From Escherichia coli (GTDB lineage: Bacteria; Pseudomonadota; Gammaproteobacteria; Enterobacterales; Enterobacteriaceae): a DNA stretch of 64,000 bases. Position 1 is the first letter of the stretch. Each line of letters opens with the position of its first letter. The notes beneath the pieces were generated by a model that saw only the letters and a program-made list of their open reading frames with translations, was not told where the DNA came from and searched no databases. The DNA is taken from NCBI RefSeq assembly GCF_046105845.1, contig NZ_CP151004.1. One strand, written 5' to 3'. Of the stretch, positions 44,249 through 61,928 are shown piece after piece. The position numbers were made by a program, and so were the translations under genes.

Positions 44249-45615
44249 GTGCGGAGAAATTGCCGGAGGGGTGGGTTGAGTGTGAATTATCCGAACTCGG
44301 TAACATTGTTACAGGGAAAACTCCCAGTACCAAGGAGCCTTCCAATTTTGGAGGCAGCATTCCTTTCATTAAACCAGGCGATCTTGATCTCGGTGGCTAT
44401 ATCATGAATACCGCCGATACTCTGACGGAGAAAGGGTTATCTCTTGTCCCCACTCTTCCTGCCAATTCAGTCGTTGTGACGTGTATTGGAAATTTAGGAA
44501 AAGTTGGAATTACCGCTAAAAAATCAGCATCTAATCAACAAATAAATGCATTGATCCCGTCAGAAAAGCTAAATGTAAAATTTGTTTATTACCAAATTTT
44601 AACATTAAAACCATGGTTAGAGTCTCAATCAGCAGCTACTACAATTGCGATTGTGAACAAGAGCAAATTTTCTCAGGCACCATTTAAATTCCCGTCGCTT
44701 GCCGAACAAAAAATCATCACTGAAAAACTCGATACGCTGCTGGCGCAGGTAGACAGCACCAAAGCACGTCTTGAGCAAATCCCACAAATCCTGAATCGTT
44801 TTCGTCAGGCTATTCTAGCTAATGCTGTGGAAGGAAAATTGACCGACGAATGGCGAGCCGGAAAATGTTATATTACAGAAATCAAAAAAATATCTGATAT
44901 TATTCAGAATGCTCAAGTCGGATTAGTTCGTTCAGCTTCAGATCAAAGCGAAATATGCACTCAAAAAATGAGAACGCCTTATATAAAAATGAATAACATT
45001 CACAATGTTCTCGGAACAAATTTAGAAAAACTCGCTTATGTCAACTGTGATAGCTATGAACTGGAAAAATATAGATTAAAAAATGGAGATTGGCTCTTTA
45101 ATACACGAAATAGTTATGAGTTAGTTGGTAAATCCTGTGTCTGGAATGGATGTAGCAATGCTGTATATAATAATAATATATTAAGAGTTAGACTAAAAGA
45201 AAACTACAATTCTGTTTTTTTAGATTATTGGTTTCACTCGTTCTATGGAGTGAGCATGCTTAATAGTATTAAATCCGCAACAACAAATGTTGCTGCGATA
45301 TATCAGAAAGAACTCTTAAGTAAAAGTGTTCCATTCCCCCCCCTTCCCGAACAAGCCGAGATTGTTCGCCGCGTCGAACAACTCTTCGCCTACGCCGACA
45401 CCATAGAAAAACAGGTCAACAACGCCTTAGCCCGCGTTAACAACCTGACGCAATCCATCCTGGCAAAAGCGTTCCGTGGTGAACTCACCGCCCAGTGGCG
45501 GGCCGAAAACCCGGATTTAATCAGCGGAGAAAACAGCGCCGCCGCGTTGCTGGAAAAAATCAAAGCTGAACGCGCAGCCAGCGGGGGTAAAAAAGCCTCG
45601 CGTAAAAAATCCTGA
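44245..45615 (+). CDS. hsdS: Type I R-M specificity subunit with non-EcoKI target recognition domains
   Basis: 456 aa. The conserved central region (LAEQKIITEKLDTLLAQVDSTKARLEQIPQIL) and C-terminal region (LPEQAEIVRRVEQLFAYADTIEKQVNN...) are as in EcoKI HsdS. The two intervening AT-rich TRDs differ from EcoKI as I remember it. Confidence 0.9.
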   Translation: MSAEKLPEGWVECELSELGNIVTGKTPSTKEPSNFGGSIPFIKPGDLDLGGYIMNTADTLTEKGLSLVPTLPANSVVVTCIGNLGKVGITAKKSASNQQINALIPSEKLNVKFVYYQILTLKPWLESQSAATTIAIVNKSKFSQAPFKFPSLAEQKIITEKLDTLLAQVDSTKARLEQIPQILNRFRQAILANAVEGKLTDEWRAGKCYITEIKKISDIIQNAQVGLVRSASDQSEICTQKMRTPYIKMNNIHNVLGTNLEKLAYVNCDSYELEKYRLKNGDWLFNTRNSYELVGKSCVWNGCSNAVYNNNILRVRLKENYNSVFLDYWFHSFYGVSMLNSIKSATTNVAAIYQKELLSKSVPFPPLPEQAEIVRRVEQLFAYADTIEKQVNNALARVNNLTQSILAKAFRGELTAQWRAENPDLISGENSAAALLEKIKAERAASGGKKASRKKS

Positions 45616-45627
45616 TCATTATTTTCT

Positions 45628-45652
45628 GGCGCACCTTTCCGGTGCGCTTTTT
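45628..45652 (+). terminator. Intrinsic terminator after hsdS
   Basis: GCGCACC-tttcc-GGTGCGC followed by TTTTT. Confidence 0.75.
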
Positions 45653-45747
45653 ATTATTTTACGCCAATCATAACTCACGCAAATATATTTAAATCATTCC
45701 AGAAATTGCCTATTTTATTCTATTTTTAGCTGGACTTTCCCTGTATT

Positions 45748-45767
45748 TACTGATGATATATCCAGGT
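45748..45767. promoter_or_regulatory. LexA (SOS) box upstream of symE
   Basis: TACTGATGATATATCCAGGT has the form CTG-N10-CAG (45750-45765), compared with the consensus TACTGTATATATATACAGTA. Confidence 0.7.
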
Positions 45768-45771
45768 ATTT

Positions 45772-45848
45772 AGCGCGGTGCGGATGTGCGCCAACACACC
45801 CGCACCGCTCATCACAATCACTATTCCAGGAGAATAGCAGTTATGACT
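45772..45848 (-). ncRNA. symR: SymR antisense RNA (antitoxin of symE)
   Basis: Mapped from the remembered K-12 geometry: 77 nt, starting 6 nt inside symE and running antisense over its RBS. A TAAAAT -10 lies 7 nt upstream of the predicted start (AGTCATAACTGC...). The 3-prime hairpin is GCGGTGCGG...CCGCACCGC. Confidence 0.65.
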
Positions 45849-46184
45849 GACACGCATTTTATTGCACAACCGTTCGAAGCAGAAGTCTCCCCGGCAAATA
45901 ACCGTCAATTAACCGTGAGTTATGCGAGCCGCTACCCGGATTACAGCCGTATTCCCGCCATCACCCTGAAAGGTCAGTGGCTGGAAGCCGCCGGTTTTGC
46001 CACCGGCACGGCGGTAGATGTCAAAGTGATGGAAGGCTGTATTGTCCTCACCGCCCAACCCCCCGCCGCTGAAGAGAGCGAACTGATGCAGTCGCTGCGC
46101 CAGGTGTGCAAACTGTCGGCGCGTAAACAAAAGCAGGTGCAGGCGTTTATTGGAGTGATTGCCGGTAAACAGAAAGTCGCGTAA
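45843..46184 (+). CDS. symE: SOS-induced toxin SymE (AbrB-fold, type I TA)
   Basis: 113 aa from ATG 45843, [52 protein letters not shown]... Confidence 0.9.
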
Positions 46185-46345
46185 CAGCGTTTACTCCCGG
46201 TTAACCACCGGGAGCCTTCCACTGACTCAATAGAAACTTTCCCCCTCAGTAAATATTTACCTGCCTGATTGTGCAGTAAAAATCTATTGTTTCAGTACGT
46301 TGCGAAAGCGATAATAGAGGCTTAGCAATGAGGAAGGCACATCTT

Positions 46346-47725
46346 ATGGAATCAATTCAAGCCTGGATTGAAAAATTTATTGAGCAAGCACAGCAACAAA
46401 GTTCGCAATCCACTAAAGATTATCCAACGTCTTACCGTAACCTGCGAGTAAAAGTGAGTTTCGGTTATGGCAATTTTACATCTATTCCCTGGTTTGCATT
46501 TCTTGGAGAAGGTCAGGAAGTTTCTAACGGTATATATCCCGTTATTCTCTATTATAAAGATTTTGATGAGTTGGTTTTGGCTTATGGTATAAGTGACACG
46601 AATAAACCACATGCACAATGGCACTTTTCTTCTGACATACCTAAAACAATCGCAGAGTATTTCCAGGCAACTTCAGGTGTATATCCTAAAAAATACGGAC
46701 AGTCCTATTACGCCTGTTCCCAAAAAGTCTCACAGGGTCTTGATTATACCCGGCTTGCCTCCATGCTGGACAACATAATCAACGACTATAAATTAATATT
46801 TAATTCTGGCAAGAGTGTTATTCCACCTATGTCAAAAACTGAATCATACTGTCTGGAAGATGCGTTAAATGATTTGTTTATCCCTGAAACCACAATAGAG
46901 ACGATACTCAAACGATTAACCATCAAAAAAAATATTATCCTCCAGGGGCCGCCCGGCGTTGGAAAAACCTTTGTTGCACGCCGTCTGGCTTACTTGCTGA
47001 CAGGAGAAAAGGCTCCGCAACGCGTCAATATGGTTCAGTTCCATCAATCTTATAGCTATGAGGATTTTATACAGGGCTATCGTCCGAATGGTGTCGGCTT
47101 CCGACGTAAAGACGGTATATTTTACAATTTTTGTCAGCAAGCTAAAGAGCAGCCAGAGAAAAAGTATGTTTTTATTATAGATGAAATTAATCGTGCCAAT
47201 CTCAGTAAAGTATTTGGCGAAGTGATGATGTTAATGGAACATGATAAACGAGGTGAAAACTGGTCTGTTCCCTTAACCTACTCCGAAAACGATGAAGAAC
47301 GATTCTATGTCCCGGAGAATGTTTATATTATCGGTTTAATGAATACTGCCGATCGCTCTCTGGCCGTTGTTGATTATGCCCTGCGCAGACGATTTTCTTT
47401 CATAGATATTGAGCCAGGTTTTGATACACCACAGTTCCGGAATTTTTTACTGAATAAAAAAGCAGAACCTTCATTTGTTGAGTCTTTATGCCAAAAAATG
47501 AACGAGTTAAACCAGGAAATCAGCAAAGAGGCCACTATCCTTGGGAAAGGATTCCGCATTGGGCATAGTTACTTCTGCTGTGGGTTGGAAGATGGCACCT
47601 CTCCGGATACGCAATGGCTTAATGAAATTGTGATGACGGATATCGCCCCTTTACTCGAAGAATATTTCTTTGATGACCCCTATAAACAACAGAAATGGAC
47701 CAACAAATTATTAGGGGACTCATAG
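46346..47725 (+). CDS. mcrB: 5-methylcytosine-specific restriction enzyme McrBC, GTPase/DNA-binding subunit McrB
   Basis: 459 aa from ATG 46346 (MESIQAWIEKFIEQ...) with the AAA+ GTPase motif GPPGVGKT. An internal in-frame ATG at 46829 (Met162, MSKTESY...) corresponds to the known McrB-S start. Confidence 0.95.
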   Translation: MESIQAWIEKFIEQAQQQSSQSTKDYPTSYRNLRVKVSFGYGNFTSIPWFAFLGEGQEVSNGIYPVILYYKDFDELVLAYGISDTNKPHAQWHFSSDIPKTIAEYFQATSGVYPKKYGQSYYACSQKVSQGLDYTRLASMLDNIINDYKLIFNSGKSVIPPMSKTESYCLEDALNDLFIPETTIETILKRLTIKKNIILQGPPGVGKTFVARRLAYLLTGEKAPQRVNMVQFHQSYSYEDFIQGYRPNGVGFRRKDGIFYNFCQQAKEQPEKKYVFIIDEINRANLSKVFGEVMMLMEHDKRGENWSVPLTYSENDEERFYVPENVYIIGLMNTADRSLAVVDYALRRRFSFIDIEPGFDTPQFRNFLLNKKAEPSFVESLCQKMNELNQEISKEATILGKGFRIGHSYFCCGLEDGTSPDTQWLNEIVMTDIAPLLEEYFFDDPYKQQKWTNKLLGDS

Positions 47726-48771
47726 TGGAACAGCCCGTGATACCTGTCCGTAATATCTATTACATGCTTACCTATGCATGGGGTTATTTACAGGACATTA
47801 AGCAGGCCGACCTTGAAGCCATACCCGGTAACAATCTTCTTGATATCCTGGGGTATGTATTAAATAAAGGGGTTTTACAGCTTTCACGCCGAGGGCTTGA
47901 GCTTGATTACAATCCTAATACCGAGATCATTCCTGGCATCAAAGGGCGAATAGAGTTTGCTAAAACAATACGCGGCTTCCATCTTAATCATGGGAAAACC
48001 GTCAGTACTTTTGATATGCTTAATGAAGACACGCTGGCTAACCGAATTATAAAAAGCACATTAGCCATATTAATTAAGCATGAAAAGTTAAATTCAACTA
48101 TCAGAGATGAAGCTCGTTCACTTTATAGAAAATTACCGGGCATTAGCACTCTTCATTTAACTCCGCAGCATTTCAGCTATCTGAACGGCGGAAAAAATAC
48201 GCGTTATTATAAATTCGTTATCAGTGTCTGCAAATTCATCGTCAATAATTCTATTCCAGGTCAAAACAAAGGACACTACCGTTTCTATGATTTTGAAAGA
48301 AACGAAAAAGAGATGTCATTACTTTATCAAAATTTTCTTTTTGAATTTTGCCGTCGTGAATTACCATCTGTAAATACAACTCGCCCACATTTAAAATGGG
48401 ATGCATCAAGCATATCGGATCAATCACTTAGCTTGTTACCTCGAATGGAAACTGACATCACCATTAACTCATCAGGGAAAATACTTATCGTTGATGCCAA
48501 ATACTATAAAAGCATTTTTTCACGACGAATGGGTACAGAAAAGTTTCATTCTCAAAATCTATATCAACTGATGAGTTACTTATGGTCGTTAAAGCCTGAA
48601 AATGGCGAAAAAACAGGGGGGTTATTAATATACCCACACGTAGACACCTCAGTGAAACATCGTTATAAAATTAATGGCTTCGATATTGGCTTGTGTACCG
48701 TCAATTTAGGTCAGGAATGGCCGTGTATACATCAAGAATTACTCGACATTTTCGGTGAATATCTCAAATAA
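47725..48771 (+). CDS. mcrC: McrBC nuclease subunit McrC
   Basis: 348 aa. GTG start at 47725 overlaps the mcrB stop (TAGTG). PD-(D/E)XK segment ...ETDITINSSGKILIVDAKYY. Confidence 0.9.
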   Translation: MEQPVIPVRNIYYMLTYAWGYLQDIKQADLEAIPGNNLLDILGYVLNKGVLQLSRRGLELDYNPNTEIIPGIKGRIEFAKTIRGFHLNHGKTVSTFDMLNEDTLANRIIKSTLAILIKHEKLNSTIRDEARSLYRKLPGISTLHLTPQHFSYLNGGKNTRYYKFVISVCKFIVNNSIPGQNKGHYRFYDFERNEKEMSLLYQNFLFEFCRRELPSVNTTRPHLKWDASSISDQSLSLLPRMETDITINSSGKILIVDAKYYKSIFSRRMGTEKFHSQNLYQLMSYLWSLKPENGEKTGGLLIYPHVDTSVKHRYKINGFDIGLCTVNLGQEWPCIHQELLDIFGEYLK

Positions 48772-48793
48772 GCGGTAAGTTTTATAGAAAATA

Positions 48794-48820
48794 CCGCTCC
48801 CGACACCACATCGGGAGCGG
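48794..48820. terminator. Perfect 10-bp hairpin between convergent mcrC and the giant helicase gene
   Basis: CCGCTCCCGA-caccaca-TCGGGAGCGG, with a T-rich tail on the minus strand (tattttct). Confidence 0.6.
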
Positions 48821-48827
48821 CTCATCA

Positions 48828-51800
48828 TCAGGAGGCGATCACCTCCACCAGCACATCCGTTGCCCAACTCTCTTCGCTGTTGGCGACATTCCCTTCCTTG
48901 CAGGCCTGAGCCATTTTGACTAACTGGAAAGAAACGTCATCGCGGAAATCAAAGTAATGCCATTGCGATGCAAAGTTGATGCGCCAGTAGCCCATCCCCT
49001 GATCGAAGCGGATCTTCAATACCTGACCATCATCAAAAGTCACCGTCAGTTTACGATGGTGAGGGATATCGCGCGGCGAGTCGAACACCGTCAGTTCTAC
49101 CGGCCTGCCCAGCGCAGCAGCAAACCACTGATCAGCGAAATCCTGAAAATCCGCTATGCTCATCCAGTCATGGAAAGGCCGGTTACCGGGGCGATCTTTA
49201 TCTTTAAATAGCGTATCCAGCGTCACTTCAGCGCCATCGGTCAGCTTTGTTTTTAGCGGTCTCAAAATTGATCCCAACAACGCCAGCGCAACCGGGTTTT
49301 GCAGATAGCGATCGGTATAGTGAACGCCGGTAATTCGCGTGTTATTCATCAGTGACTGCGCTTCTTCATGGTCGTTAAACAGCACGTCCCAGAAGCGTTG
49401 CCCAAACTGCGACAGTGGTCCATTCAACTGTTTGTGGATCTGAATGTCTTTGACCCGCTCGACAGCGTTGGCGGCTTTAGCCGGCAGAATAAATTCGTTC
49501 AGCTCTACCGTTTTATAGCCGAGACTACGTACCACCAGTTCGTCATTCAGGTGCCACTCCGGCCCCGGAATCGTTGCCTGCTGGCTACGAGAGGCCAGCG
49601 TCATCACGCGATCGGCAAAGGTGACCTGAGCAACGATCGGTAATTTCAAATCCTGTTCAACATGGCATAGCCGCACACCCAGCGCAGTAAATTGCGATAG
49701 TTCGTGCAACAGGTCCGGGTCATCCACTCCCGCAGGAATAACAAGATCGACCTCGACGTTGTCTTTTAGCCGATAGTTCTGAACCGCCGCGCGGAACTGA
49801 CGTGCGTATAAATCCCACTCATTGGGCGCGCCGGTCATCCACAGGGTGAGCTTTTCAGCGCCTTCGTTAATCGCCCGGCGAATCGTATCGCCAATGGCGC
49901 CAGGGCAGTAGCGGGCATCCGGCAGCGAGAATGTCTCTTCATCCGGTAAACCGATGTAATACGTGAAGTCATCGCCAAGCCAGGCCAGCGCCGCTTTGCG
50001 ATCCAGCAAATCGTGATCGTGGCGAGTCTGGGAATCAAGCAGGCATTCACTACATGCAGTCTCACAATGGCGGCAGCCTAACTGTTTCACCATTCCCTGC
50101 AATATAGCTTCAATGTGTACCGGTGCGCTGGAGGCAAAACCTGCACCACCGCTGATCACATCATAAAGCTGTACGGCTAATACCGATTGCCCATCCTCCA
50201 GTCTGACCGGACGTACAGAATAGCCGAGTTCTGCGGCGGAGATACCCAGAACGCCCGCCAGCGCCTGACGCAGAGCAACCGCCAGAGTCATGGCAACAAT
50301 CCGCCCCTCCTCTGTGTTATCTGGCAGATACTCGCCGTTTTGCGGTTTGCGCAGAACCATTTCAAAGACATCGGTGCGCGCCAGTGCGCCCAGGGTGACG
50401 TTCTTCATGAGTGCCGTCGAACCGGGGCAAATCAGACGATGATTCTGGCTATCGCGGTCCGCTTTACCCGGACGCGGTGGATAGTGAGCTTCCATGCTTT
50501 TCGGCGCATCATTTTCATTCAGCATCGACTCAGCACGGCCACAGCTCAGACACAATGCATAACCGTGTCCACCTTCCCCCAAACTTTGCTGGAAAACATG
50601 CCCATCAGCCCCAGAAGCCATATAACCCATTAGCGGGTTAGGCAACGGTACGGGCTCTGCTTTAACAAAGACCCACGCGGGGACAACCGGGACGAATTTC
50701 ATGGTTTCAATATTGTTCGTTACCGGAGCGTGTGCATCGGTGACAAACCCGGCAGGCTGCAGCACCTGACGGCGATTATCCATGATTATTTTTTCGCCGC
50801 AGGCGCTATTGGAGCAAAAGAGCATCCCGGAACTGCTCATCCCCTCTTCATAGCCAATGGTCCCGCATTTGTGACAGCGCCAGGCGCAATCCAGACGCTG
50901 GGCTTCATTGGTATCAGCATTAATGTTGTGCCAGTGCAGTGAGACACCGGCAGAGCGGAAGACACGGCCATCAAGAATGATCTCTGCTCCCGGTGCATAT
51001 TCACGAATGGCAACACCGAGGTTACGGGAAGGTAATCCTTTATAACGGGAGACGTTATCTTCACGGTCCTTTTTATCACGACTTTTTTGCGATTTTTCGC
51101 GGATATAATCTTCCATTGTGAAGTTATCAAACGTCACTACATCTGTCGGGAAACCGTATCCCGGCAAGAAGGTTCTGGCAGCTAGATCGCGCAGCAGATA
51201 CTCGCCACAGTGCCGTTTCTTCTCCAGCTCTATGCGCTTACGATAAGGCGTTTGCGGCTGCGACTCACGCTCCTGTGTCACGAGATCGCGATAAACGGAG
51301 AGCCACCGCTGCTGCAGGAAGGTGATCGCGTTGATTGTTTTATCCCGCAGATATTCGGCTCTTGCACCATGCAACGCCGTACCTTTCACCAGCCGTTCCA
51401 GCGCCGTGTCGATATCAAGAACAGGGCGTTCCAGCCAGACTTTGAAGCGTTCGCATTTTGACTGCCCGTCATCTTCACCGAAAAACCAGAGGCTATCGAG
51501 GCTGGTTTTCTCTTTATCGGTTTCGCCAATAACGTTACATAAAAAGTCGGACAGTAATAATGCATTGACGTGACGTTGCACCAGTCGGGCGGAGTTCATC
51601 GCGACCATGGGTGCCGGGATCATGGTTTCAAATGGCCAGAGCGGGTTGGCAAAAACCTGCTGGTCGTGTGGGTTACCTTTACATAGGGTGTAAGAGATCG
51701 CACGTGATTCTTTACTACGCCCGGCTCGCCCGGCGCGCTGTAAATAGTTGGCCGGATGTGGCGGTACGTTGTTCATTACCACCGCAGTAATGCCCCCGAT

Positions 51801-54800
51801 ATCAACCCCCATTTCCATGGTGGTGGAACAGTTGAGAACATTTAGTTGCCCATTCTTGAACATCTTTTCATAGCTTTGCAGACGTTCTGACGACTGCTGG
51901 GCAGAGTGCTCGGCAGTGCGATAGTAGAAACCGCCTTCCACGACACGATCGTTGATGTCTGTCCAGACGTTTTCCGACCGCAATTGTGCGATCAGCGGAT
52001 CATTGCTGACCCAGTCGCGTGCTTTTGCCAGACCCTCTGCGTAGTCTTCCTGTGAACGATCCAGCTTCCAGATTTCCGGCATGGTGACTTTCTGCGCGAC
52101 AAAAGTGTCATATTGCGCCTGGGTAAGATGCTCGAACGAAATATGGGTAGGCAGATAAGGGGTTAAGCCTTTAAAAGCCGTATCCAGGATTTTATTGGTT
52201 ACCGGGCAAATCCAGGCATCCGTGATTAATGAAAAAGTCATATGCTCTTTCGGTAAATAAAAACGGTTGCCATCGGGTTTCAGTACTGCAAGCGGTCCGG
52301 TAAGTTGGGCCCATGCTTCTTTCAGCCATGTATTGATAATATCAATAGTCGCCGTATTGACGGTTTTGAATCCAGCCCCCAGCATCAGTAACTTCGCTAA
52401 ACGATGGGATACGTTGCCATTACGAATTTGAGGCCAGCGTCTGTTCTGATTATCTTCAGGATCTTTTGATTCCGGGTTACGGACGAATTTTGATGAAAAA
52501 CGGCTACCGATCCAGTTTTTCAGCTCATCATCCAGCTGTGTGAAGTTGCTCTCACGAACGTAATGATCCAGCGTAACTTTGAGAAAATCGCGCCAGTCAT
52601 CCAGCGTTAATCCTTTTTCCTGCCAGTGCAGAGGGATCTTATGTATTTTCTCCAGCCCCAGGTAACCAACCTGAACCAGCCCTTGTGTTTCCAGGCTGTT
52701 AGTCCGTTTAGGGCGACGCATGAATTCCCGGAATAACAACATTTCCGAAAGCTTTAGAGGCCCGCCGTTTTCATTAAACACTTCAGGCTTAAGATAATGG
52801 TTATATTGCAGAACCGGGCCACGGATATCGGCTCTCTCTTTAAGCTCGTTAACCATTTCTGTCCAGGTTCGGGATACCAGAGTAATTGCAGCTTTTCCAC
52901 CGATTGCAGACTGGTAAGCCTGTTCAAGCTGCTCGGCCTGCGCTTCTGATAATTTCGCTTGATCCGGCAATCCCCAGCTTCGATATTCTTCTGCCTGCTC
53001 ACGGGCTTGCTTTACCCTGGTCGCTAATTTTTCCAGATCGGCATTAGCGTTCGGCGCCGTGGGCGTTTGCGTTCGTTGATGCCAGCTCAGAATTTCGACT
53101 ACGCTTCCGCGTAAGCGACTACGTTCTGCTTCTTGCTGCATACGCACCGCCATCCGGGCTGTCCCTTGTCGACTATCCGTAAAGGTAATGAGTCGACGTC
53201 CTCGCCCTGGCAACGAATCTGGTCCGACGCCCTCTTTGCCTTCATCACTGGCAAAGTCCTGACAATACTCAAGAACGGTAGGCACGATGTTAGTAACGTA
53301 AAATGGCCCACCTAATAATGCACGCCGAAAGGGTTGTTTTCCGCTCATGCCTCGGTAGCCACAGCCGCTGGCGCTACAAACCTGTTCAATATCATTAATA
53401 ATCAGCGGAATGCTGTCATTATTAATAACGCCAATACGGCGCGTCTGACGGTCGAGGCGTTGTAGGGTATAGCCTGTCTCGCTGGTCTCTCCTGCGGCAA
53501 TAATCAACGGAGGCTGGAAACTGTTCTCTTTTTCGACTTTTTCCTCTGTAGTGTCATGTTCAACAGGTACTTCATCCTGCAAGGAGAACTCATCGCCACC
53601 TTTATTTTCCCATTGGACAAGTTTGCCCTTTTTGTCCTGCGCCAGAAGATGAGGCTCATTACAATCATTACAGAACGCCACTTCGTATACAGGGCTTCCA
53701 CAGTCACAATTTTGTCGCTGGTTCACATACACATAGCCAAAGGGCCAGCCTTTTTCGAGCGGTGTACCGTGCTTTAATCTGCAATCTTTATCAACACAAG
53801 CCCATATTCCCTGGGTATTACGCTGGAAGATATGCGCCCTGACTTTAAGAAATGCGGGATCCTTTGCATTAGGTTGAGTCCCTGAACAGACATCGATCCA
53901 ACGCAGTACTTCCTGCTGGCTGTAATGCTGTTTTGTCAGCACGTTTAACCGCTCTGTTATCTCATCCAGCTTCATCGGATTGGGCTGTTTGACCAACATC
54001 TCACGTATGTAACGCGCTTCGGGGGAATGCGTAAGCGCATAAAAGCGATCAGGACTTATACCTTTAATTTTATTATCATTTTTATCTCTTAGATCCAGAT
54101 CGGGTATTTGCTCTATTTCGTCTAACGGAAGAGAAACGTTTTTGGATGGTTCCAGTTCAGGAATCACCCGACTTCCGTCCAGAACATCGATGCGCTCCTT
54201 CGGGATACCGGATAATTCAGAGAGAAATTTTTTCAGCTGCTTTTCGACGTCGCTGCCGGCAATGGTCGCAGAGGTCGCTACAAAGCGCACATCATCTGGC
54301 GTCACGCCAAACGCTGTCATCACACGACGCAGCTGGAGCGCCAGTTCAGCGGCCTGCGACCCGACATAGGTATGCGCTTCATCCAGTACAATCCAGCGTA
54401 GTGATTTTTGTGCTTTGGATTGCTGGATAATCGGGGCGTCGACCTGGCGAACCATCATATATTCCAGCATCGTGCCGTTGGTCACCAGAATCGGGGCAGG
54501 TTCTTCACGCATTTTTTCGCGCGAGAGCACCTCATTCGGCCTTTTTGCCTGTTCGCTTTTTACCGAAGCGTGTAGGTTTTCGGTGTTACCGTTGTAAAGG
54601 CAGTAGCGGATCCCGGTACCAAAACCACGCGTCCAGGCATCCAGACGCTCGCGCTGTGAATTAATCAGGGCGTTCAATGGATAGAGAAAAAGGGCTCGGA
54701 CACCGACCAACGGATTGTTGCCATTTTCATGCAGTTCCCGGTAAAGATCTTCCAGCACCGGTACCATAAAACATTCCGTTTTACCTGAACCCGTACCACT

Positions 54801-55172
54801 GGTTACCACCACTGAATGTTTCTTTTCCAGCAAAGCTTTCCAACTGGCTAACTGGTGTGTAAAAGGCTTCCAGTCAGCACCAAATCGGTACCGGCCATTA
54901 CTCTGATCATCCAGTGAATCAACCACTGCTTTGCTCAACAATGCGTTGCCTTCCGTCAGACTGCGCATCGTGTGGTTTGACTCCTTCCAGCCAAACATTT
55001 GCTGGAATACCGGAGAAGCAAGGAATGAGCCCGGTTTCCCACAATCAGCCCCCATTTGTTGCGCGAGATGTTCACGCAGCTGCGGGTTGGTTACGCCCAT
55101 GATACTGAGCGTTGCTTCAGTTGAACGAGACAACGATTGTTCAATAAGTGACGAAAAATAGCGTGTAGTCAT
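48828..55172 (-). CDS. druE: 2114-aa DExH-box helicase with DUF1998/MrfA-type zinc module and ~400-aa C-terminal extension (DruE-like)
   Basis: It has GTGSGKT (aa 126-132), DEAH (263-266), SAT (301-303), [12 protein letters not shown] (661-672), [11 protein letters not shown] (1117-1127), QRAGRAGR (1145-1152) and the cysteine cluster [11 protein letters not shown] (1700-1710). AGGA-type SD, 12 nt after the upstream stop. The symbol is assigned from architecture and memory only. Confidence 0.8.
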
Positions 55173-55184
55173 CCTTATTCCTTT

Positions 55185-58100
55185 TTATTTTTTAGCAACA
55201 TAACGCAACAGGCTGCACTGAAAGATGGTCTTAAACCAGCGGGAATCGAAGTCCCTGACTTGCCTCAGGAAAAATACGGCACCGGGTTTACGGTCAAATA
55301 CAGCTTCAAAAGAAGTATTTCCGCTTGCCACAGCTGCAGCGAAGACGGGTAACCAGGCCACGGAATAGCGGTGATTTGCGTCAGGATTAATACCAATCAC
55401 TGGCTTTTTTTGTGACATCATCCATTTATACAGACGCTTGCAGCCATATTCAGGCCAGCGAGCTTCACTGTGCTCACGTAAAAGCTCCTGATACCACCCG
55501 TGGACACAAGATTCAGGAATAGACGGAGGGAGATATCCGTTACTTAACCATTTCTCAATTTCATCGGCATATGTCGGGAACACGAGCCCCAGCCGTTGAA
55601 ACATATTAGTAACCAGTAATTTCTGGGTTTCCTCCGGTGCACCTTTTTGGCTCAGGAACAATTTGAAACGCTCAGATGCAGCTTTGATCTCAAAGATGGG
55701 GAAAAACTCCCATAGAATAGGGAACTCATTCTCAATACGACTCAGGTACTCTGCTGACATTTCAAATTTGAAGAGCGACATTGCCAATGCCTGCGGATGC
55801 TGCACCAGTGCACGCCATACTTCAAAGGTTGCCAGTGGTAAATACCCGAATTGATCGTACAGGCTACGCATAAATTGCCAGCCGGAATGGGCAGGATCGT
55901 TAGCCATCTGTCCGAGAACCAGTGTGATGGTATTAACTTCTGCCTGTGGATTAAAAAGCTGGGTCGCTTTCTGCAATGAGCGGATGTTGCTTTCTTCTAC
56001 CGGTAACGAAGATTCGCCACGAATGAAGCAGGGACGAAAAGCCATCTCTTCACCCGGTTTAGGGACAACCAACCACGGTCCATTTTTGTTAACGATTGAG
56101 CTCAACTCATATTCACCGACAGGCACTCCCTCGCTCATTCTAGATGCTAAGGGAATGGATTTCCTCTCGGGTTCACTTAACAGCATGATAACGGGGGAAG
56201 GAATCTGCCCAGCACGATGGTTCACTGACTGGCTGAGTAATAGTTCTTTTTCATAATCATAGCGCAGGCTGTATTTATAGCGACGAATTTGCCAGGCCAT
56301 GACCACACCTGCCCCCGTAATACGCATCTCAACAACCTGATCAATACCTGCCTCAAGTGAAATCAGGTTCTCAATATGTTCGCGAAGACTATAGAGATTC
56401 AATTCAACAGGACGATCGCTCAACGCCGTATAACACCATTCATGCCATGCCTGTAATCCACTAACGGAGCGCAAATACAACTGCAATGTATATTTTGTCG
56501 GCTCACCATTTCTGGAGAACAGAAACGCTCTGGAACCCAGCAGATCATGCAGCGTAATGTTTTTATCCAGAGGACGTCCGTTTACATCAAGAGCGAGACA
56601 GCCTTTAGCGGGAAAAGGTAACTCAATGTCGATGGGGTCAGCCGCCAAATTAGGCAGAACTTGTAATGTAATAAATGCCGGAGGTACCCCTTCCGCTTTA
56701 AGTTGTATCTCTGTTCGCCCCTCAGTACGCTTACGTGTAGCCTCCAATGTTTTATCTTTAAGTTTTGCTACACAAGGATGCTGTGTGGTGATTAAGATAG
56801 TGCCTTCATTTGCGTGCATTCCACCTTTTATCTCAATACTGAAATCAGCAGGCAAGATACCGATTTTGCGACGCAAGAGCGTTTCATTGTTACTATTACG
56901 GATAGAAAGATATTGAGCCCCCAGCATCTCTTGTATATGACATTGCTCAATTGAAATTCCGCTCAGGTAACGCGTTACATCAATGCTTTGAATATCCGGT
57001 AGTGTAGAAATGACTTTTGGTACACCAATAAATGTTTCATCTGGATGACAAACCCAGCTTGCACGCTTTCCATTTAGAGCAAACCTTCCGATGCTGATTT
57101 GTTCTCTTCCGGTGCGAATCCGATAAGTTTCATTTGCTGTAACTGTAACGTCCTGACATCCCTTCACAGGTAGTGCTTTTAGTCCTAATACGTTTACTGC
57201 GCTCGATTGGCCATCAAAACCAGCAACATTGCTATTATCCCGAGGGAGTACAATCAGAACATCGCTGCTTCGCACACTGCAAGAAGCCTGTCCCTGTAAC
57301 AGCCATTGATCTGCATCAACGATGAAGGTTAACGGCACCTCACCAATGGCAATTTCACTGTCATCAAGTTTAATGCTCCCAACAATCATCCCTCCAGCAC
57401 GAGCCACTAATGACAAACCTGCCGATGGATTTTGCCTGACAAATCTCACTTCGCTTTTACGTAATCGAACTGTTGCCTGTCTGTTTTCCAGGGAAGCATA
57501 GGCTGGCCCAAGGCCAGAGACTTCCTCACCATCTTCACAAATGGCAAGTTCAAAGCGCGTAGTTGACGGCTCGCTTGTTACAGGAAAGGAAACTTCGTCC
57601 GGAAGAGATACTATCACCCTAAGCTCATCTGGATGCTTTTCTGACCAATAGAATTGGCAACGCGTACTCTTATTTTTTTGTAGTCGAGGCTTAGCCTCTA
57701 CAGAGGCTGCGCATAGCAGTCCATTCAAAAAATGCGTTCCTGTTTCATCATCTAACGGTATTGGAAACTCGCTTCGCCAGGTAGGGTGAACCTTCTCAAG
57801 CTGTTGTACTGGTTCTTTGTGATTTATTAGGTTGTGAGTAAGTACTAAGGAATTGAGGTTATCAGCCATATGACTGATAAGTTCTACAGAGGTATCTTCG
57901 CTAAAAACAGTTGGCAGCGCTGATTTTTCTATGACAGCTCTTGCCAGCGAAAGGGCAGAAAAACCTGACTGCTTTGCTTGCTCATATTGTCCAAGGATCC
58001 TGGAGAAAACAGCCAGAAAGCGACTGTCTGATTCTTTGAGTAGCCGGAAAGGTAAACCACCTTCACTGAATAATGTTCCGAGAAAATTGCGTCGTTCAGA

Positions 58101-58475
58101 TTCATAAAATCGAATTGGGCGCAGCCAGTAATCTTCCATCCCTTTCGGTACGATAGTACCAAGCTCTGTGGCGGTGAATGAAATCCCTATTTTTTTATAT
58201 ATAGGGTCCCACGTCCATCCGCATTGCCGTTCATAATCCCTGCGGTACCACTCAGAGCAAAAAAGAACAAAACAGGCAGCAAAGTCCCTATTACATATAT
58301 TAGATTGTGATTGATCGACCGCACGGAGTAGCTGCGTTAATTGGGTATATTCATCATTGGTTGCATGATATTCATAAAGAGGACGGCCATCCGGTTGTCT
58401 CAACCCTCTAAGATTCACAAAGTTACTTAGCCAGGAAGTACATTTTACCCATGAAATGTATTCTGATTGACCCAA
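55185..58475 (-). CDS. druH: ~1100-aa protein of unknown function, operon partner of the helicase (DruH-like; STY4851/ECs_5259-type from memory)
   Basis: The long ORF has no recognisable catalytic motif. The preferred start is TTG 58475, 6 nt after AAGGAG (58482-58487). The ORF-track start GTG 58523 has no SD. There is no in-frame ATG near the 5-prime end. Confidence 0.75.
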   Translation of the reverse strand: MGQSEYISWVKCTSWLSNFVNLRGLRQPDGRPLYEYHATNDEYTQLTQLLRAVDQSQSNICNRDFAACFVLFCSEWYRRDYERQCGWTWDPIYKKIGISFTATELGTIVPKGMEDYWLRPIRFYESERRNFLGTLFSEGGLPFRLLKESDSRFLAVFSRILGQYEQAKQSGFSALSLARAVIEKSALPTVFSEDTSVELISHMADNLNSLVLTHNLINHKEPVQQLEKVHPTWRSEFPIPLDDETGTHFLNGLLCAASVEAKPRLQKNKSTRCQFYWSEKHPDELRVIVSLPDEVSFPVTSEPSTTRFELAICEDGEEVSGLGPAYASLENRQATVRLRKSEVRFVRQNPSAGLSLVARAGGMIVGSIKLDDSEIAIGEVPLTFIVDADQWLLQGQASCSVRSSDVLIVLPRDNSNVAGFDGQSSAVNVLGLKALPVKGCQDVTVTANETYRIRTGREQISIGRFALNGKRASWVCHPDETFIGVPKVISTLPDIQSIDVTRYLSGISIEQCHIQEMLGAQYLSIRNSNNETLLRRKIGILPADFSIEIKGGMHANEGTILITTQHPCVAKLKDKTLEATRKRTEGRTEIQLKAEGVPPAFITLQVLPNLAADPIDIELPFPAKGCLALDVNGRPLDKNITLHDLLGSRAFLFSRNGEPTKYTLQLYLRSVSGLQAWHEWCYTALSDRPVELNLYSLREHIENLISLEAGIDQVVEMRITGAGVVMAWQIRRYKYSLRYDYEKELLLSQSVNHRAGQIPSPVIMLLSEPERKSIPLASRMSEGVPVGEYELSSIVNKNGPWLVVPKPGEEMAFRPCFIRGESSLPVEESNIRSLQKATQLFNPQAEVNTITLVLGQMANDPAHSGWQFMRSLYDQFGYLPLATFEVWRALVQHPQALAMSLFKFEMSAEYLSRIENEFPILWEFFPIFEIKAASERFKLFLSQKGAPEETQKLLVTNMFQRLGLVFPTYADEIEKWLSNGYLPPSIPESCVHGWYQELLREHSEARWPEYGCKRLYKWMMSQKKPVIGINPDANHRYSVAWLPVFAAAVASGNTSFEAVFDRKPGAVFFLRQVRDFDSRWFKTIFQCSLLRYVAKK

Positions 58476-58973
58476 AGCAAGCTCCTTAGAGATAAAAGAT
58501 ACAAAAACAAAACCCCACAACACTTCTAATTTGAAAGAAAACTTTTCAAAATATCGTATAATTAATCAGGCGGCAACAACTAATTTTTCAGGTCGGTACT
58601 ATAAATTAATTTTAGATAAAAATGATATCAACCATCTATTAATCACAACTCATTTATCACCTGGTTTTATAATTTCAAATGAAAATAAATCTCAAACAAT
58701 CAAAAAGTATGCAGTAGCTAACATTTAACTTTCCAGGATATAAAACAATTAGAGAAACTGCACAATAGCGAATAATGAAAGTTGTAAAGTCAGTCAAAAA
58801 ACACAAGCAATCAGTGTGCGTTTTTTGACCGTTATCGACATGAGTTTAAAGAGTTTAGTGAAGAAGATATTCCTGTACACTCCATACCTATTGATGAATT
58901 GTCTCGGGAAAATTTTTATAACTTAATTTAAAAACATAAAAACGTTTTATTATATATAAATCTATACCCCCCC

Positions 58974-59138
58974 TCACTCCACATCCTCCCTGCGTAACCC
59001 AATATCCCTCAACCGCTCATCACTCATCTGCTGTAACACCCGCCGGGCCTGCATTTGCCGCCGCCAACGCCTCACTGCCTGCCAGAGTTGCACAAGTCCA
59101 ATAAACGGTGCTTTAGCTTTGTTTTCGTGAAATTCCAT
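58974..59138 (-). CDS. yjiS: DUF1127 small protein YjiS (54 aa; below ORF-track cutoff)
   Basis: My own translation of the minus strand is MEFHENKAKAPFIGLVQLWQAVRRWRRQMQARRVLQQMSDERLRDIGLRREDVE. There is a GAGGAGG SD 6 nt upstream. Confidence 0.8.
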   Translation of the reverse strand: MEFHENKAKAPFIGLVQLWQAVRRWRRQMQARRVLQQMSDERLRDIGLRREDVE

Positions 59139-60970: not shown

Positions 60971-61928
60971 TTAGTACTCGATCCAAGGATCGCGCTTGCT
61001 TTCAGGCAAGGGCTGCTCTAATGCCTGCATTTGCTCTGCCGAGAGTCCGGTATATCGTTGTATCCATTCAGGATCTGCCCCATTCTGCAACAACAATCGG
61101 AGGAGGCTCCGTTCCCCTTCTACTTTCCCTTCTTTCCTCCCCCTCTCCCTTCCCAACAGCCATCCATCATTATGAATTCGCTCTGCAATCGTCATTATTC
61201 GCTCCCTTTGTTGTGGCATTCGACTGGTTAGTTCGCTGATAAACTCTTTAAAACGCGCTTCATCGCCAGTCAGTAAAATGTAATTTAACAGCGCAGTTAT
61301 CTGGCTGTCATTAGTACACTCTGTAACCAGTAATACTACCAGTTGGTCGATAAGTCCCATCAGATCGCGCTGGCGAATATGCTTTTGGATCAACTCCAAC
61401 AGGGCGACTCTGCGATGCTGCACAATCTCGTCGTCTGGCACGACAGTGACATCCACCAGCGGGAACGCGGCGTTATAAACTTTCCGTGCGGTAGCCGGGT
61501 CGGCAAATTCGTCCAGCCAGCACAGGGACCAGGGATAAGGACTACGGCTACCGTGATAAAACAGCATCGGGATGACCAGCGGTAGCGGCCGGCGTTTATC
61601 ATGCTCGATATGGCGCTGCATCACCGCCATGGAATAGCGCATAAGGCGAAACGCCATATGAATATCCTCGCGGCTCTGATGTTCAATCACTACGTAAATA
61701 TAACCATCACCTTCACGGGTCTTTACCGACCACAGAAATATCGGAATGTAGCGCCCGCAATTTTTCATCGACAAAGCTGGCGGATTCCAGTTTTAAGCTG
61801 TCGAGATCGCACAGTTCACGTAAATCTTTGGGTAAGTGGATCTCCATAAAATCCCGCGCGGTGTCAGGGTGCGTGAGAAAGGATTTAAATAATGCGTCAT
61901 GCGGCGTGCTGGTTGTGAAGTTTGTCAT
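60971..61928 (-). pseudogene. rpnD: Rpn-family recombination-promoting nuclease (PD-(D/E)XK, transposase_31), split by a 1-nt frameshift
   Basis: ORF 61713-61928 ([27 protein letters not shown]...LHSDI) and ORF 60971-61774 (...[21 protein letters not shown]...) join into one Rpn protein if one base of the A-run at 61736-61738 is removed. Confidence 0.75.

What the first reader, a model, noticed from the sequence alone, without database searches (positions are those of the whole stretch)
55185..58523. The ~1100-aa partner protein is devoid of recognisable motifs and lacks an ATG start
The frame is open from GTG 58523, but the only SD-supported start is TTG 58475 (AAGGAG, 6-nt spacer). There is no in-frame ATG until far inside the gene. 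The protein shows no P-loop, nuclease, methyltransferase or HTH signature that I can see. Its N-terminal third is Trp/Tyr/Arg-rich (CSEWYRRDYERQCGWTWDPIYKK). Its middle looks beta-rich (repeated short hydrophobic-polar alternation, aa ~300-760). Its C-terminal third looks helical (ALAMSLFKFEMSAEYLSRIENEFPILWEFFPIF). A weak non-ATG start suggests low stoichiometry relative to the helicase. The function is entirely open, and it may be the specificity or sensor component.
Basis: seen in the sequence. Interest (0 to 1): 0.6.

Follow-up and report, generated by a model that had tools for sequence, protein, structure and literature searches.

The report
DruH (YjiT) of type III Druantia
The large "motif-less" protein is DruH (E. 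coli YjiT), the known partner of the DruE helicase in the type III Druantia anti-phage system; it is ordinary, apart from a weak TTG/GTG start codon that is conserved across enterobacteria.

Summary
An intact 1096-codon gene runs from TTG 58475 (AAGGAG, 6-nt spacer) to the stop at 55185. There is no in-frame ATG before codon 113 and no hit in the local Pfam-A copy.

The protein is not unknown. It is DruH/YjiT of a type III Druantia defence operon (PADLOC DruH 1829 bits; NCBIfam YjiT_fam 1262 bits). [quoted passage not shown]

Five 2026 studies describe DruH from a 24%-identical E. coli paralogue and from Pseudomonas and Mycobacterium. [quoted passage not shown] They variously propose an infection sensor, an ATP-inhibited ssDNA binder or a 3'-5' exonuclease. 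One study measured about 190 DruH to 470 DruE copies per cell.

My AlphaFold model reproduces that architecture, and fold searches find no enzyme fold.

Two comparisons add something:
- The TTG/GTG start is kept in 16 of 16 enterobacterial orthologue loci, while druE always starts with ATG. Distant relatives use ATG.
- The published loss-of-function residues of the N-terminal surface (E75, R78, R79, W89 and others) are invariant here. The published ATP/ssDNA pocket is not recognisably conserved.

Verdict: already known, low interest.

The parts
55185..58475 (-). druH (yjiT), 1096 aa plus stop, TTG start
   Evidence: PADLOC DruH PDLC00049, 1829 bits over the full length. NCBIfam YjiT_fam, 1262 bits. 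RefSeq annotates a CDS of identical extent in strain MS1170.
58473..58487 (-). Translation initiation region: AAGGAG (58487-58482), 6-nt spacer, TTG (58475-58473)
   Evidence: The SD plus TTG is conserved in 13 enterobacterial orthologue loci, and GAGAGG plus GTG in 3 more. None uses ATG.
57672..58475 (-). N-terminal all-helical domain (aa 1-268; Pfam YjiT_N). It holds the invariant E75, R78, R79, W89, W117, L132, G139 and G140.
   Evidence: AF2 models. Invariant columns. Mapping onto the published loss-of-function mutants of EcDruH.
58191..58259 (-). It holds four of the conserved loss-of-function positions (E75, R78, R79, W89).
   Evidence: for coordinates. for the correspondence to E75A, R78A/R79A and W88A loss-of-function mutants in the paralogue.
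55986..57671 (-). Beta-rich middle (aa 269-830), a tandem array of Ig/Fn3-like domains and the most variable part
   Evidence: AF2 strands at 272-818. Foldseek hits are only Ig/Fn3 arrays. Conservation is lowest at aa 401-500.
55188..55985 (-). C-terminal helical domain (aa 831-1096), the best conserved part within the clade
   Evidence: AF2 helices at 834-1095. Mean identity is 73.6% among enterobacterial orthologues. In PaDruH this domain contacts DruE (10.64898/2026.05.13.724313).
55173..55184 (-). 12-nt druH-druE spacer AAAGGAATAAGG carrying the druE Shine-Dalgarno sequence
   Evidence: It is nearly identical in most orthologous loci, and druE always starts with ATG.
48828..55172 (-). druE (yjiV in full length), 2114 aa, a YprA/MrfA-like SF2 helicase with an MZB domain and a C-terminal PLD-like HxK motif
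   Evidence: PADLOC DruE3, 2697 bits. Pfam DEAD, Helicase_C and MZB. Motifs GSGKT 128, DEAH 264, RAGR 1146 and HRKLTVTFD 2039. It is 33% identical to ECs_5260 over the full length.
48793..48821 (-). Intrinsic-terminator-like hairpin just after druE, between the convergent druE and mcrC
   Evidence: 13-bp stem with 8 GC pairs, followed by a T-rich tail.

Best explanation
Identity. The ORF is druH, known in E. coli as yjiT. [quoted passage not shown] Translation starts at TTG 58475.

Architecture. [quoted passage not shown]

Most likely mechanism (inferred from the published paralogues, not shown for this clade):
1. DruH acts upstream as the sensing or licensing subunit.
2. Its universally conserved N-terminal surface (E75, R78, R79, W89, W117, G139, G140) engages ssDNA-containing or 3'-ended phage DNA intermediates.
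3. The variable Ig array supplies recognition. Phage tail or baseplate proteins have been proposed as targets.
4. The conserved C-terminal domain couples DruH to DruE.
5. DruE then loads on the ssDNA-duplex junction, unwinds 3'-to-5' and degrades phage DNA.

Dosage (inferred). The weak TTG start, set against the ATG start of druE, keeps DruH below DruE in copy number.
For: Shown here:
- Full-length HMM matches to DruH and DruE.
- Operon layout and neighbours.
- The AF2 architecture.
- Homology to PDB 9tud_A 'DruH', E=3e-42 over residues 10-946, and hhalign probability 100% over 1021 columns to the ECs_5259 clade.
- In the profile-profile alignment, 9 of the 9 positions checked from the loss-of-function class are identical in the window, and 8 of them are invariant in its clade (F69 is F in 37 and L in 12 of 49 sequences). 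In the mafft alignment of all 14 mutated positions, 12 are identical.
- DruH diverges faster than DruE in the same loci, and the Ig region diverges fastest.
- The start is TTG or GTG in 16 of 16 enterobacterial orthologues while druE is always ATG.

From papers:
- Both genes are required for defence.
- Published DruH activities: ssDNA binding, 3'-5' exonuclease plus recruitment of DruE through the C-terminal domain, and sensor with dimer-dependent nuclease.
- About 190 DruH to 470 DruE copies per cell.
- Activation by a phage tail protein in M. smegmatis.
Against: - No experiment exists on this clade. The studied E. coli DruH is only 24% identical.
- The published biochemistry conflicts. One group finds no nuclease activity and no stable DruH-DruE complex. 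Another finds exonuclease activity and a complex.
- The ATP/ssDNA pocket residues of EcDruH are not recognisably conserved here, 0 of 9 identical.
- A scan for sigma-70 promoters finds no consensus match upstream of druH.
- Production of the protein from this locus has not been demonstrated.
Confidence: 0.85

Rival explanations
1. DruH is itself an enzyme, a Mg2+-dependent 3'-5' ssDNA exonuclease. Its active site would lie in the N-terminal helical cleft. It would trim 3' ends of forked phage DNA to make 5'-overhang junctions that recruit and activate DruE.
For: This activity was reported for P. aeruginosa DruH, with defence lost in R22A, K28A and E64A (10.64898/2026.05.13.724313). The window protein has an invariant set of acidic and basic residues in the same domain: R23, D29, R31, E42, E75, R78, R79, R119 and E138.
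Confidence: 0.3
2. DruH is a non-catalytic ssDNA clamp gated by ATP. At normal ATP levels a nucleobase pocket between Ig5 and the C-terminal domain is occupied by ATP. When infection depletes ATP, DruH binds the ssDNA produced by DruE and immobilises the phage genome.
For: Cryo-EM structures of EcDruH with ssDNA and with ATP, and R1031A, H1062A and R1064A mutants that reduce defence (10.64898/2026.05.12.722862).
Against: The pocket residues (Y670, N672, H689, Y733, D735, R1031, H1062, R1064, K1067) are conserved only in relatives of EcDruH that are at least 48% identical. They are replaced in members at 33-35% identity. None of the 9 is identical in the window protein in either alignment. Alignment at 17-18% identity is unreliable in this region, so a structurally equivalent pocket is not excluded.
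Confidence: 0.15
3. DruH is mainly a protein sensor. Its Ig-like and baseplate-J-like scaffold would recognise a phage tail or baseplate protein, and that recognition would switch the system on.
For: - Weak co-immunoprecipitation with baseplate protein Bas37_0273, and positive selection in the Ig domains (PMC13192584).
- The M. smegmatis system is activated by minor tail protein Gp25 (PMC13316683).
- Shown here: DruH diverges faster than DruE, and the Ig middle is its most variable part.
Against: The protein association is weak. Other groups explain triggering through DNA structure alone. Foldseek matches to Ig arrays have TM of about 0.1 and say nothing about the ligand.
Confidence: 0.3
4. 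The locus is a decaying remnant, as in E. coli K-12, and the protein is not made or not functional.
For: Only 222 of the 634 E. coli genomes that carry any piece of the gene hold at least 80% of it. K-12-type loci carry two internal deletions, and some strains have IS insertions.
Against: Both ORFs here are full length against their profiles (3-1099 of 1100 and 1-2053 of 2055). The SD, start and inter-gene spacer are intact and conserved. Orthologues at 62-95% identity keep the full length.
Confidence: 0.03
5. Translation starts upstream, at GTG 58523 or TTG 58520, giving a 1112-aa protein.
For: The frame is open from 58523.
Against: These codons have no SD. The 16 extra residues are not conserved, and in 11 of 16 orthologues no start codon exists upstream of the conserved TTG/GTG before an in-frame stop. 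Homologue N-termini and the HMM begin at the TTG.
Confidence: 0.03

Closest known systems
E. coli YjiT / DruH of the immigration-control-region Druantia III operon (RefSeq WP_063625629.1, 'protein YjiT'; NCBIfam NF038336; PADLOC PDLC00049)
   Same: The DNA is 99.8% identical, with the same length, the same TTG start and the same neighbours: hsdRMS, symE, mcrBC, druE, yjiS and yjiR.
   Different: Nothing of substance differs. It is the same gene in another strain.
EcDruH of the Zorya II-Druantia III-ARMADA II island (ECs_5259 in O157:H7 Sakai; strains NCTC12923, ECOR19 and ATCC8739; PDB 9tud_A; 1119 aa)
   Same: - Same family and same two-gene operon.
- Collinear over about 1020 columns (hhalign probability 100%).
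- Same N-helical / Ig-array / C-helical architecture.
- The N-terminal loss-of-function residues are identical.
- A non-ATG start (TTG, or GTG at codon 3) followed by an ATG druE.
   Different: - Only 24% identical in the BLASTP-alignable region (aa 15-563) and 18% over the whole hhalign alignment.
- The last 150 or so residues do not align in a plain profile search (hmmsearch against 9tud_A) or in local hhalign.
- The ATP/ssDNA pocket residues are not conserved.
- The genomic site differs: a satellite-like island, as opposed to the chromosomal immigration control region.
- druE overlaps the druH stop there, whereas here a 12-nt spacer separates them.
PaDruH of Pseudomonas aeruginosa type III Druantia (10.64898/2026.05.13.724313)
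   Same: A two-gene DruH-DruE system in which DruH has N-helical, six Ig-like and C-helical domains.
   Different: The exonuclease activity reported there has not been tested for this clade.
MrfA-MrfB and DISARM DrmAB(C): a YprA-family helicase paired with a separate nuclease or accessory protein
   Same: A YprA/MrfA-like helicase with an MZB (DUF1998) domain works with a partner that acts on ssDNA or 3' ends.
   Different: DruH shares no fold or motif with the MrfB DEDD exonuclease or the DrmC PLD nuclease. In Druantia III the PLD-like nuclease is fused to DruE itself.

Membership tests
DruH (type III Druantia accessory protein) | Full-length sequence match to the DruH profile | tested here: met
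   PADLOC PDLC00049, E=0, 1829 bits, residues 19-1112 against profile positions 3-1099 of 1100. Eleven further DruH models also match.
DruH (type III Druantia accessory protein) | Encoded directly upstream of, and co-directional with, druE (a large YprA-like helicase with DUF1998/MZB) | tested here: met
   druE lies at 48828-55172(-), 12 nt downstream. It matches PADLOC DruE3 at 2697 bits and Pfam DEAD, Helicase_C and MZB.
DruH (type III Druantia accessory protein) | A two-gene system with no druA-D or druF/G genes | tested here: met
   The neighbours are the convergent mcrBC on one side and yjiS/yjiR on the other. In the 17 orthologous loci with full-length druH, druE follows directly.
DruH (type III Druantia accessory protein) | Architecture: N-terminal helical domain, central Ig-like array, C-terminal helical domain | tested here: met
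   AF2, pLDDT 82.6: helices 7-268, strands 272-818, helices 834-1095. Foldseek returns tandem Ig/Fn3 arrays. I did not count the individual Ig domains.
DruH (type III Druantia accessory protein) | Conserved N-terminal functional surface (EcDruH F69, E75, R78, R79, W88, W115, L129, G136, G137) | tested here: met
   9 of 9 are identical in the window (F69, E75, R78, R79, W89, W117, L132, G139, G140). Eight are invariant in the 49-sequence clade; F69 is F in 37 and L in 12.
DruH (type III Druantia accessory protein) | Anti-phage protection that needs both DruH and DruE | not testable with these tools
   Shown only for the paralogous E. coli, Pseudomonas and Mycobacterium systems.
EcDruH-type ATP/ssDNA nucleobase pocket (a feature of one clade, not defining for DruH) | Y670, N672, H689, Y733, D735, R1031, H1062, R1064, K1067 | tested here: not met
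   0 of 9 are identical in the mafft-add and hhalign global alignments. The residues are also lost in members of the EcDruH clade at 33-35% identity. The alignment is unreliable at 17-18% identity, so this is a sequence-level result only.
YjiT family (NCBIfam NF038336; Pfam PF27201 YjiT_N and PF27205 YjiT_2nd) | Score above the curated cut-off | tested here: met
   NF038336 scores 1261.5 bits against a cut-off of 150, covering profile positions 1-1090 of 1090. The Pfam families are precomputed on all close homologues. The local Pfam copy lacks them, which explains the 0 hits.
Druantia subtype III-A (DruE with C-terminal PLD-like domains) | A long DruE (about 2100 aa) carrying C-terminal PLD-like nuclease domains | tested here: inconclusive
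   DruE is 2114 aa and collinear with the III-A DruE ECs_5260 (33% identity over 5-2088). An HxK-type motif, HRKLTVTFD, sits at 2039. No PLD profile hit was obtained.
Known nuclease or NTPase folds (PD-(D/E)xK, HNH, PLD, DEDD, P-loop) | A profile or fold match within DruH | tested here: not met

The most novel reading that the evidence does not exclude
The most novel reading has two parts.

1. The weak start is a selected dosage device. It is TTG or GTG in 16 of 16 enterobacterial orthologues and in 3 of 3 members of a second clade that is only 24% identical. druE is always ATG in the loci examined, and distant relatives use ATG for druH. The device would hold DruH below DruE, preventing self-targeting.

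2. This immigration-control-region clade lacks the ATP/ssDNA pocket of the studied EcDruH. If so, ATP gating is a clade-specific add-on, and the universally conserved N-terminal surface carries the core DruH activity. That would help decide between the conflicting 2026 models.
Probability: 0.3. Interest if true: 0.4.

Novelty: already known. Interest (0 to 1): 0.22.

Why it matters
The finding itself matters little. The gene is annotated (yjiT), the system was named in 2018, and its mechanism was dissected in 2026.

Three points may be useful to specialists:
- This window carries the intact ancestor of the K-12 yjiT/yjiV pseudogene pair, in a clade of Druantia III that appears never to have been tested experimentally.
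- Comparing this clade with the studied one separates a universally conserved N-terminal surface from a pocket that is not conserved. That bears on the disagreement over whether DruH is a nuclease, an ssDNA clamp or a sensor.
- The conserved non-ATG start gives a simple, testable handle on stoichiometry and autoimmunity in a helicase-nuclease defence system.

Tried and rejected
- Local Pfam-A gave no hit for DruH. This turned out to be an age limit of the copy, not absence of a family.
- Foldseek of the whole model against PDB returned only generic Ig/Fn3 arrays at TM of about 0.1. That library ends on 2026-04-08 and lacks 9tud, so no direct structural superposition on a solved DruH was possible.
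- Published EcDruH residue numbers, read directly on the window protein, did not match. This revealed that the studied protein is a paralogue.
- The PaDruH catalytic residues (R22, K28, E64, E220) could not be mapped because I had no sequence.
- The sigma-70 scan found no promoter-like site in the 491-nt AT-rich region upstream of druH, so the promoter remains unidentified.
- I looked for conserved synteny with mcrBC or yjiR in other genera. Only E. whittamii shares yjiR and rpn, and the flanks are too short to judge mcrBC.
- The upstream GTG/TTG starts and the pseudogene reading were considered and rejected.
Full report
**Observation**

The minus-strand ORF at 55185-58523 exists as described (1112 codons from GTG 58523).
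- TTG 58475-58473 follows AAGGAG (58487-58482) and a 6-nt spacer. GTG 58523 and TTG 58520 have no Shine-Dalgarno sequence.
- The first in-frame ATG is codon 113 from the TTG.
- The local Pfam-A copy gives no hit, and there is no Walker A motif.
- The N-terminal third is only marginally richer in W and Y than the rest of the protein. The flagged 23-mer at aa 73-95 is the real local signal.

**Identity**

PADLOC matches the protein to DruH (PDLC00049) at E=0 and 1829 bits, over residues 19-1112 of the GTG frame and profile positions 3-1099 of 1100. It matches the downstream 2114-aa ORF (48828-55172) to DruE3 at 2697 bits.
- DruE carries the Pfam domains DEAD, Helicase_C and MZB/DUF1998.
- NCBIfam places the protein in NF038336 YjiT_fam ('STY4851/ECs_5259 family') at 1262 bits against a cut-off of 150.
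- Homologues carry the newer Pfam families PF27201 (YjiT_N) and PF27205 (YjiT_2nd), and their partners carry PF27116 (YjiV_N). The local Pfam copy simply predates these.

The DNA is 99.8% identical to E. coli chromosomes in which the gene is annotated 'yjiT: protein YjiT', with a 3291-nt CDS. That extent corresponds to the TTG 58475 start.

[quoted passage not shown] A strong terminator-like hairpin at 48821-48793 separates druE from mcrC.

**The start codon**

Three lines of evidence fix the start at the TTG.
- Homologue N-termini align at this codon (MxQSE...).
- The HMM begins there.
- In 11 of 16 orthologous loci from other enterobacterial species, no alternative start codon lies between the nearest upstream in-frame stop and this codon. 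The first in-frame ATG falls at codons 58-203, which would remove invariant residues.

The codon is TTG in 13 of those loci, each with AAGGAG-like SD and the same spacing. It is GTG in 3 (two Proteus species and Pantoea sp. C3). It is ATG in none. Four-fold-degenerate third positions in codons 2-50 are only about 25-65% identical between genera.

druE, by contrast, starts with ATG in every locus. In most enterobacterial orthologues a near-identical 12-nt spacer, TAA-AAAGGAATAAGG-ATG, precedes it.

The pattern changes in more distant relatives.
- Members of the same clade at 41-48% identity (Pseudomonas, Aeromonas, Azotobacter, Methylotuvimicrobium, Salinisphaera) use ATG. In three of them (Pseudomonas, Aeromonas, Azotobacter) druE overlaps the end of druH by 8 nt.
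- A second, deeply diverged enterobacterial DruH clade also uses non-ATG starts. Sakai ECs_5259 is annotated TTG, with GTG at codon 3. Pectobacterium uses GTG. Lelliottia is annotated CTG, with GTG at codon 3. Distant members of that clade use ATG.

For the Sakai-type gene the exact start is annotated, not proven. An ATG also exists at codon 16.

**What is published**

Five 2026 studies address DruH. All used other DruH proteins.

- The E. coli ones (NCTC12923, ECOR19, ATCC8739/EDL933) are the 1119-aa protein of the Zorya II-Druantia III-ARMADA II island.
- This is ECs_5259 in Sakai. It carries every residue number cited in those papers. Over the N-terminal stretch shown, its sequence matches PDB 9tud_A 'DruH', which has the same length.

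| Study | Identifier | Main findings on DruH |
|---|---|---|
| Hu et al. | 10.64898/2026.05.12.722862 | N-terminal globular domain, six Ig-like subdomains, C-terminal domain. ssDNA binding at the Ig5/CTD interface (Y670, N672, Y733, R1031, H1062, R1064, K1067), competitively inhibited by ATP. No nuclease activity and no stable complex with DruE. About 190 DruH and 470 DruE copies per cell from the native promoter. |
| Loeff et al. | 10.64898/2026.05.13.724313 | P. aeruginosa DruH is a Mg2+-dependent 3'-5' exonuclease with a putative site in the N-terminal helical cleft. Its C-terminal domain binds DruE on forked DNA. |
| Wu et al. | PMC13192584 | Likely sensor with a baseplate-J-like/Ig scaffold and positive selection. 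Nuclease activity depends on dimerisation. The N-terminal surface at residues 63-137 is essential (F69A, E75A, R78A/R79A, W88A, Y114A/W115A, L129A, G136A/G137A all abolish defence). |
| Li and He | PMC13316683 | In M. smegmatis the DruH-DruE interaction is essential, and a minor tail protein activates the system. |

**How the window protein relates to the studied one**

| Comparison | Result |
|---|---|
| BLASTP | 24% identity over aa 15-563 |
| Profile of 49 homologues against PDB | Only 9tud_A, E=3e-42, residues 10-946 against 10-961 |
| hhalign, clade against clade (global) | Probability 100%, E=3e-69, 1021 columns, 18% identity |
| DruE against DruE | 33% identical and collinear |

The two E. 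coli operons are therefore old paralogous versions of the same system.

The loss-of-function class of Wu et al. covers 14 mutated positions. In the mafft alignment, 12 of them are identical in the window protein.

I checked nine of these in the profile-profile alignment, and all nine map to identical residues: F69, E75, R78, R79, W89, W117, L132, G139 and G140. Eight are invariant in the 49-sequence window clade, where F69 is F in 37 and L in 12. All nine are invariant in the second clade.

The ATP/ssDNA pocket residues behave differently.
- They are conserved only among relatives of EcDruH that are at least 48% identical.
- They are replaced in members at 33-35% identity.
- None of the 9 is identical in the window protein in either alignment.

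Alignment at this identity is unreliable in the Ig and C-terminal regions, so this is a sequence-level statement only.

**Structure**

AlphaFold2 on the 49-sequence alignment gives mean pLDDT 82.6, with helices at 7-268, strands at 272-818 and helices at 834-1095.
- Foldseek against PDB returns only tandem Ig/Fn3 arrays (myofilament proteins, cytokine receptors, contactins) at TM of about 0.1, and no enzyme.

The N-terminal domain is therefore not a recognisable known fold.

**Evolutionary pattern**

In the same loci DruE is more conserved than DruH.

| Genus | DruE identity to window | DruH identity to window |
|---|---|---|
| Citrobacter | 91% | 77% |
| Raoultella | 79% | 62% |
| Brenneria | 70% | 62% |
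| Salinisphaera | 56% | 41% |

Within DruH, the Ig middle is the most variable part, with the minimum at aa 401-500. The C-terminal helical domain is the most conserved.

This fits a variable recognition module flanked by a conserved functional N-terminal domain and a conserved partner-binding C-terminal domain. That reading is an inference.

**Mechanism I commit to**

DruH is the upstream licensing subunit.
- Its conserved N-terminal surface acts on ssDNA-containing or 3'-ended phage DNA.
- The Ig array contributes specificity.
- The C-terminal domain couples it to DruE, which unwinds 3'-to-5' and degrades.
- DruH is kept sub-stoichiometric by its weak start codon.

Three things are shown here: the identity, the conservation patterns and the start-codon pattern. 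Everything biochemical is inferred from the paralogues. Whether DruH is catalytic remains disputed in the literature, and I cannot resolve it.

**Verdict**

The object is an already known, annotated defence gene, and interest is low.

The modest additions are:
- the conserved non-ATG start;
- the split between a universal N-terminal surface and a pocket that is not conserved;
- the recognition that this window holds the intact form of the K-12 yjiT/yjiV remnants.

Noticed in passing
window 49616-51799 and 53950-56966 (compared with L015:8001-13270): K-12-type loci (for example E. coli ECDA1023) align to the window with two deletions. One, of about 3.0 kb, removes the 3' half of druH and the 5' end of druE. 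The other, of about 2.2 kb, lies inside druE. The K-12 yjiT and yjiV pseudogenes are therefore remnants of exactly this operon. A 921-aa YjiT_N+MZB fusion protein (P0117, 229 members) is a product of such a deletion.
   Followed up: partly
window 55185-58600 against 5426 complete E. coli genomes: 634 genomes carry some part of this druH but only 222 carry at least 80% of it. Several have IS3 or IS100 insertions in or next to yjiT (hits H10-H14). The system is often decayed within the species.
   Followed up: no
L022:12012-15371 (E. coli O157:H7 Sakai ECs_5259), L027, L028: The experimentally studied 1119-aa EcDruH is annotated with a TTG start, and its Lelliottia orthologue with CTG. All share a GTG two codons downstream, which is the annotated start in Pectobacterium. 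The true N-terminus of the published protein may therefore be two residues shorter than the numbering in use.
   Followed up: partly
L023-L026 (Pseudomonas, Aeromonas, Methylotuvimicrobium, Azotobacter): In distant relatives druH starts with ATG. In three of the four loci (all but Methylotuvimicrobium, where a short spacer intervenes) druE overlaps the end of druH by 8 nt (ATGGATAA), which suggests translational coupling. Most enterobacterial loci instead have a 12-nt spacer with its own SD.
   Followed up: partly
window 48828-55172 (DruE), aa 2039-2047: An HxK-type motif, HRKLTVTFD, lies near the C-terminus of DruE. This fits the PLD-like nuclease domain described for type III-A DruE, but no Pfam PLD hit was obtained.
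   Followed up: no
window 58476-58966: The 491-nt region between yjiS and druH is AT-rich; the 1-kb block 58000-58999 that contains it is 36% GC. It contains no sigma-70 consensus match in the simple scan. The druH promoter is unidentified, and H-NS-type silencing is conceivable.
   Followed up: no
window 44000-48999: The 3' part of hsdS, symE and mcrBC have low GC (39-45%), against 47-55% for druE and 45-47% for druH. The immigration control region looks like a mosaic of separately acquired modules.
   Followed up: no
window 60971-61774 (-): An Rpn-family recombination-promoting nuclease / putative transposase gene lies two genes beyond druH, at the proximal edge of the immigration control region. 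It is also present next to the E. whittamii orthologue.
   Followed up: no
window 55185-58475, local Pfam-A versus precomputed Pfam: The local Pfam-A copy reports no family for DruH. Precomputed annotations list PF27201 (YjiT_N) and PF27205 (YjiT_2nd) for every homologue. A 'no Pfam hit' result from the local copy can therefore reflect the age of the library.
   Followed up: yes
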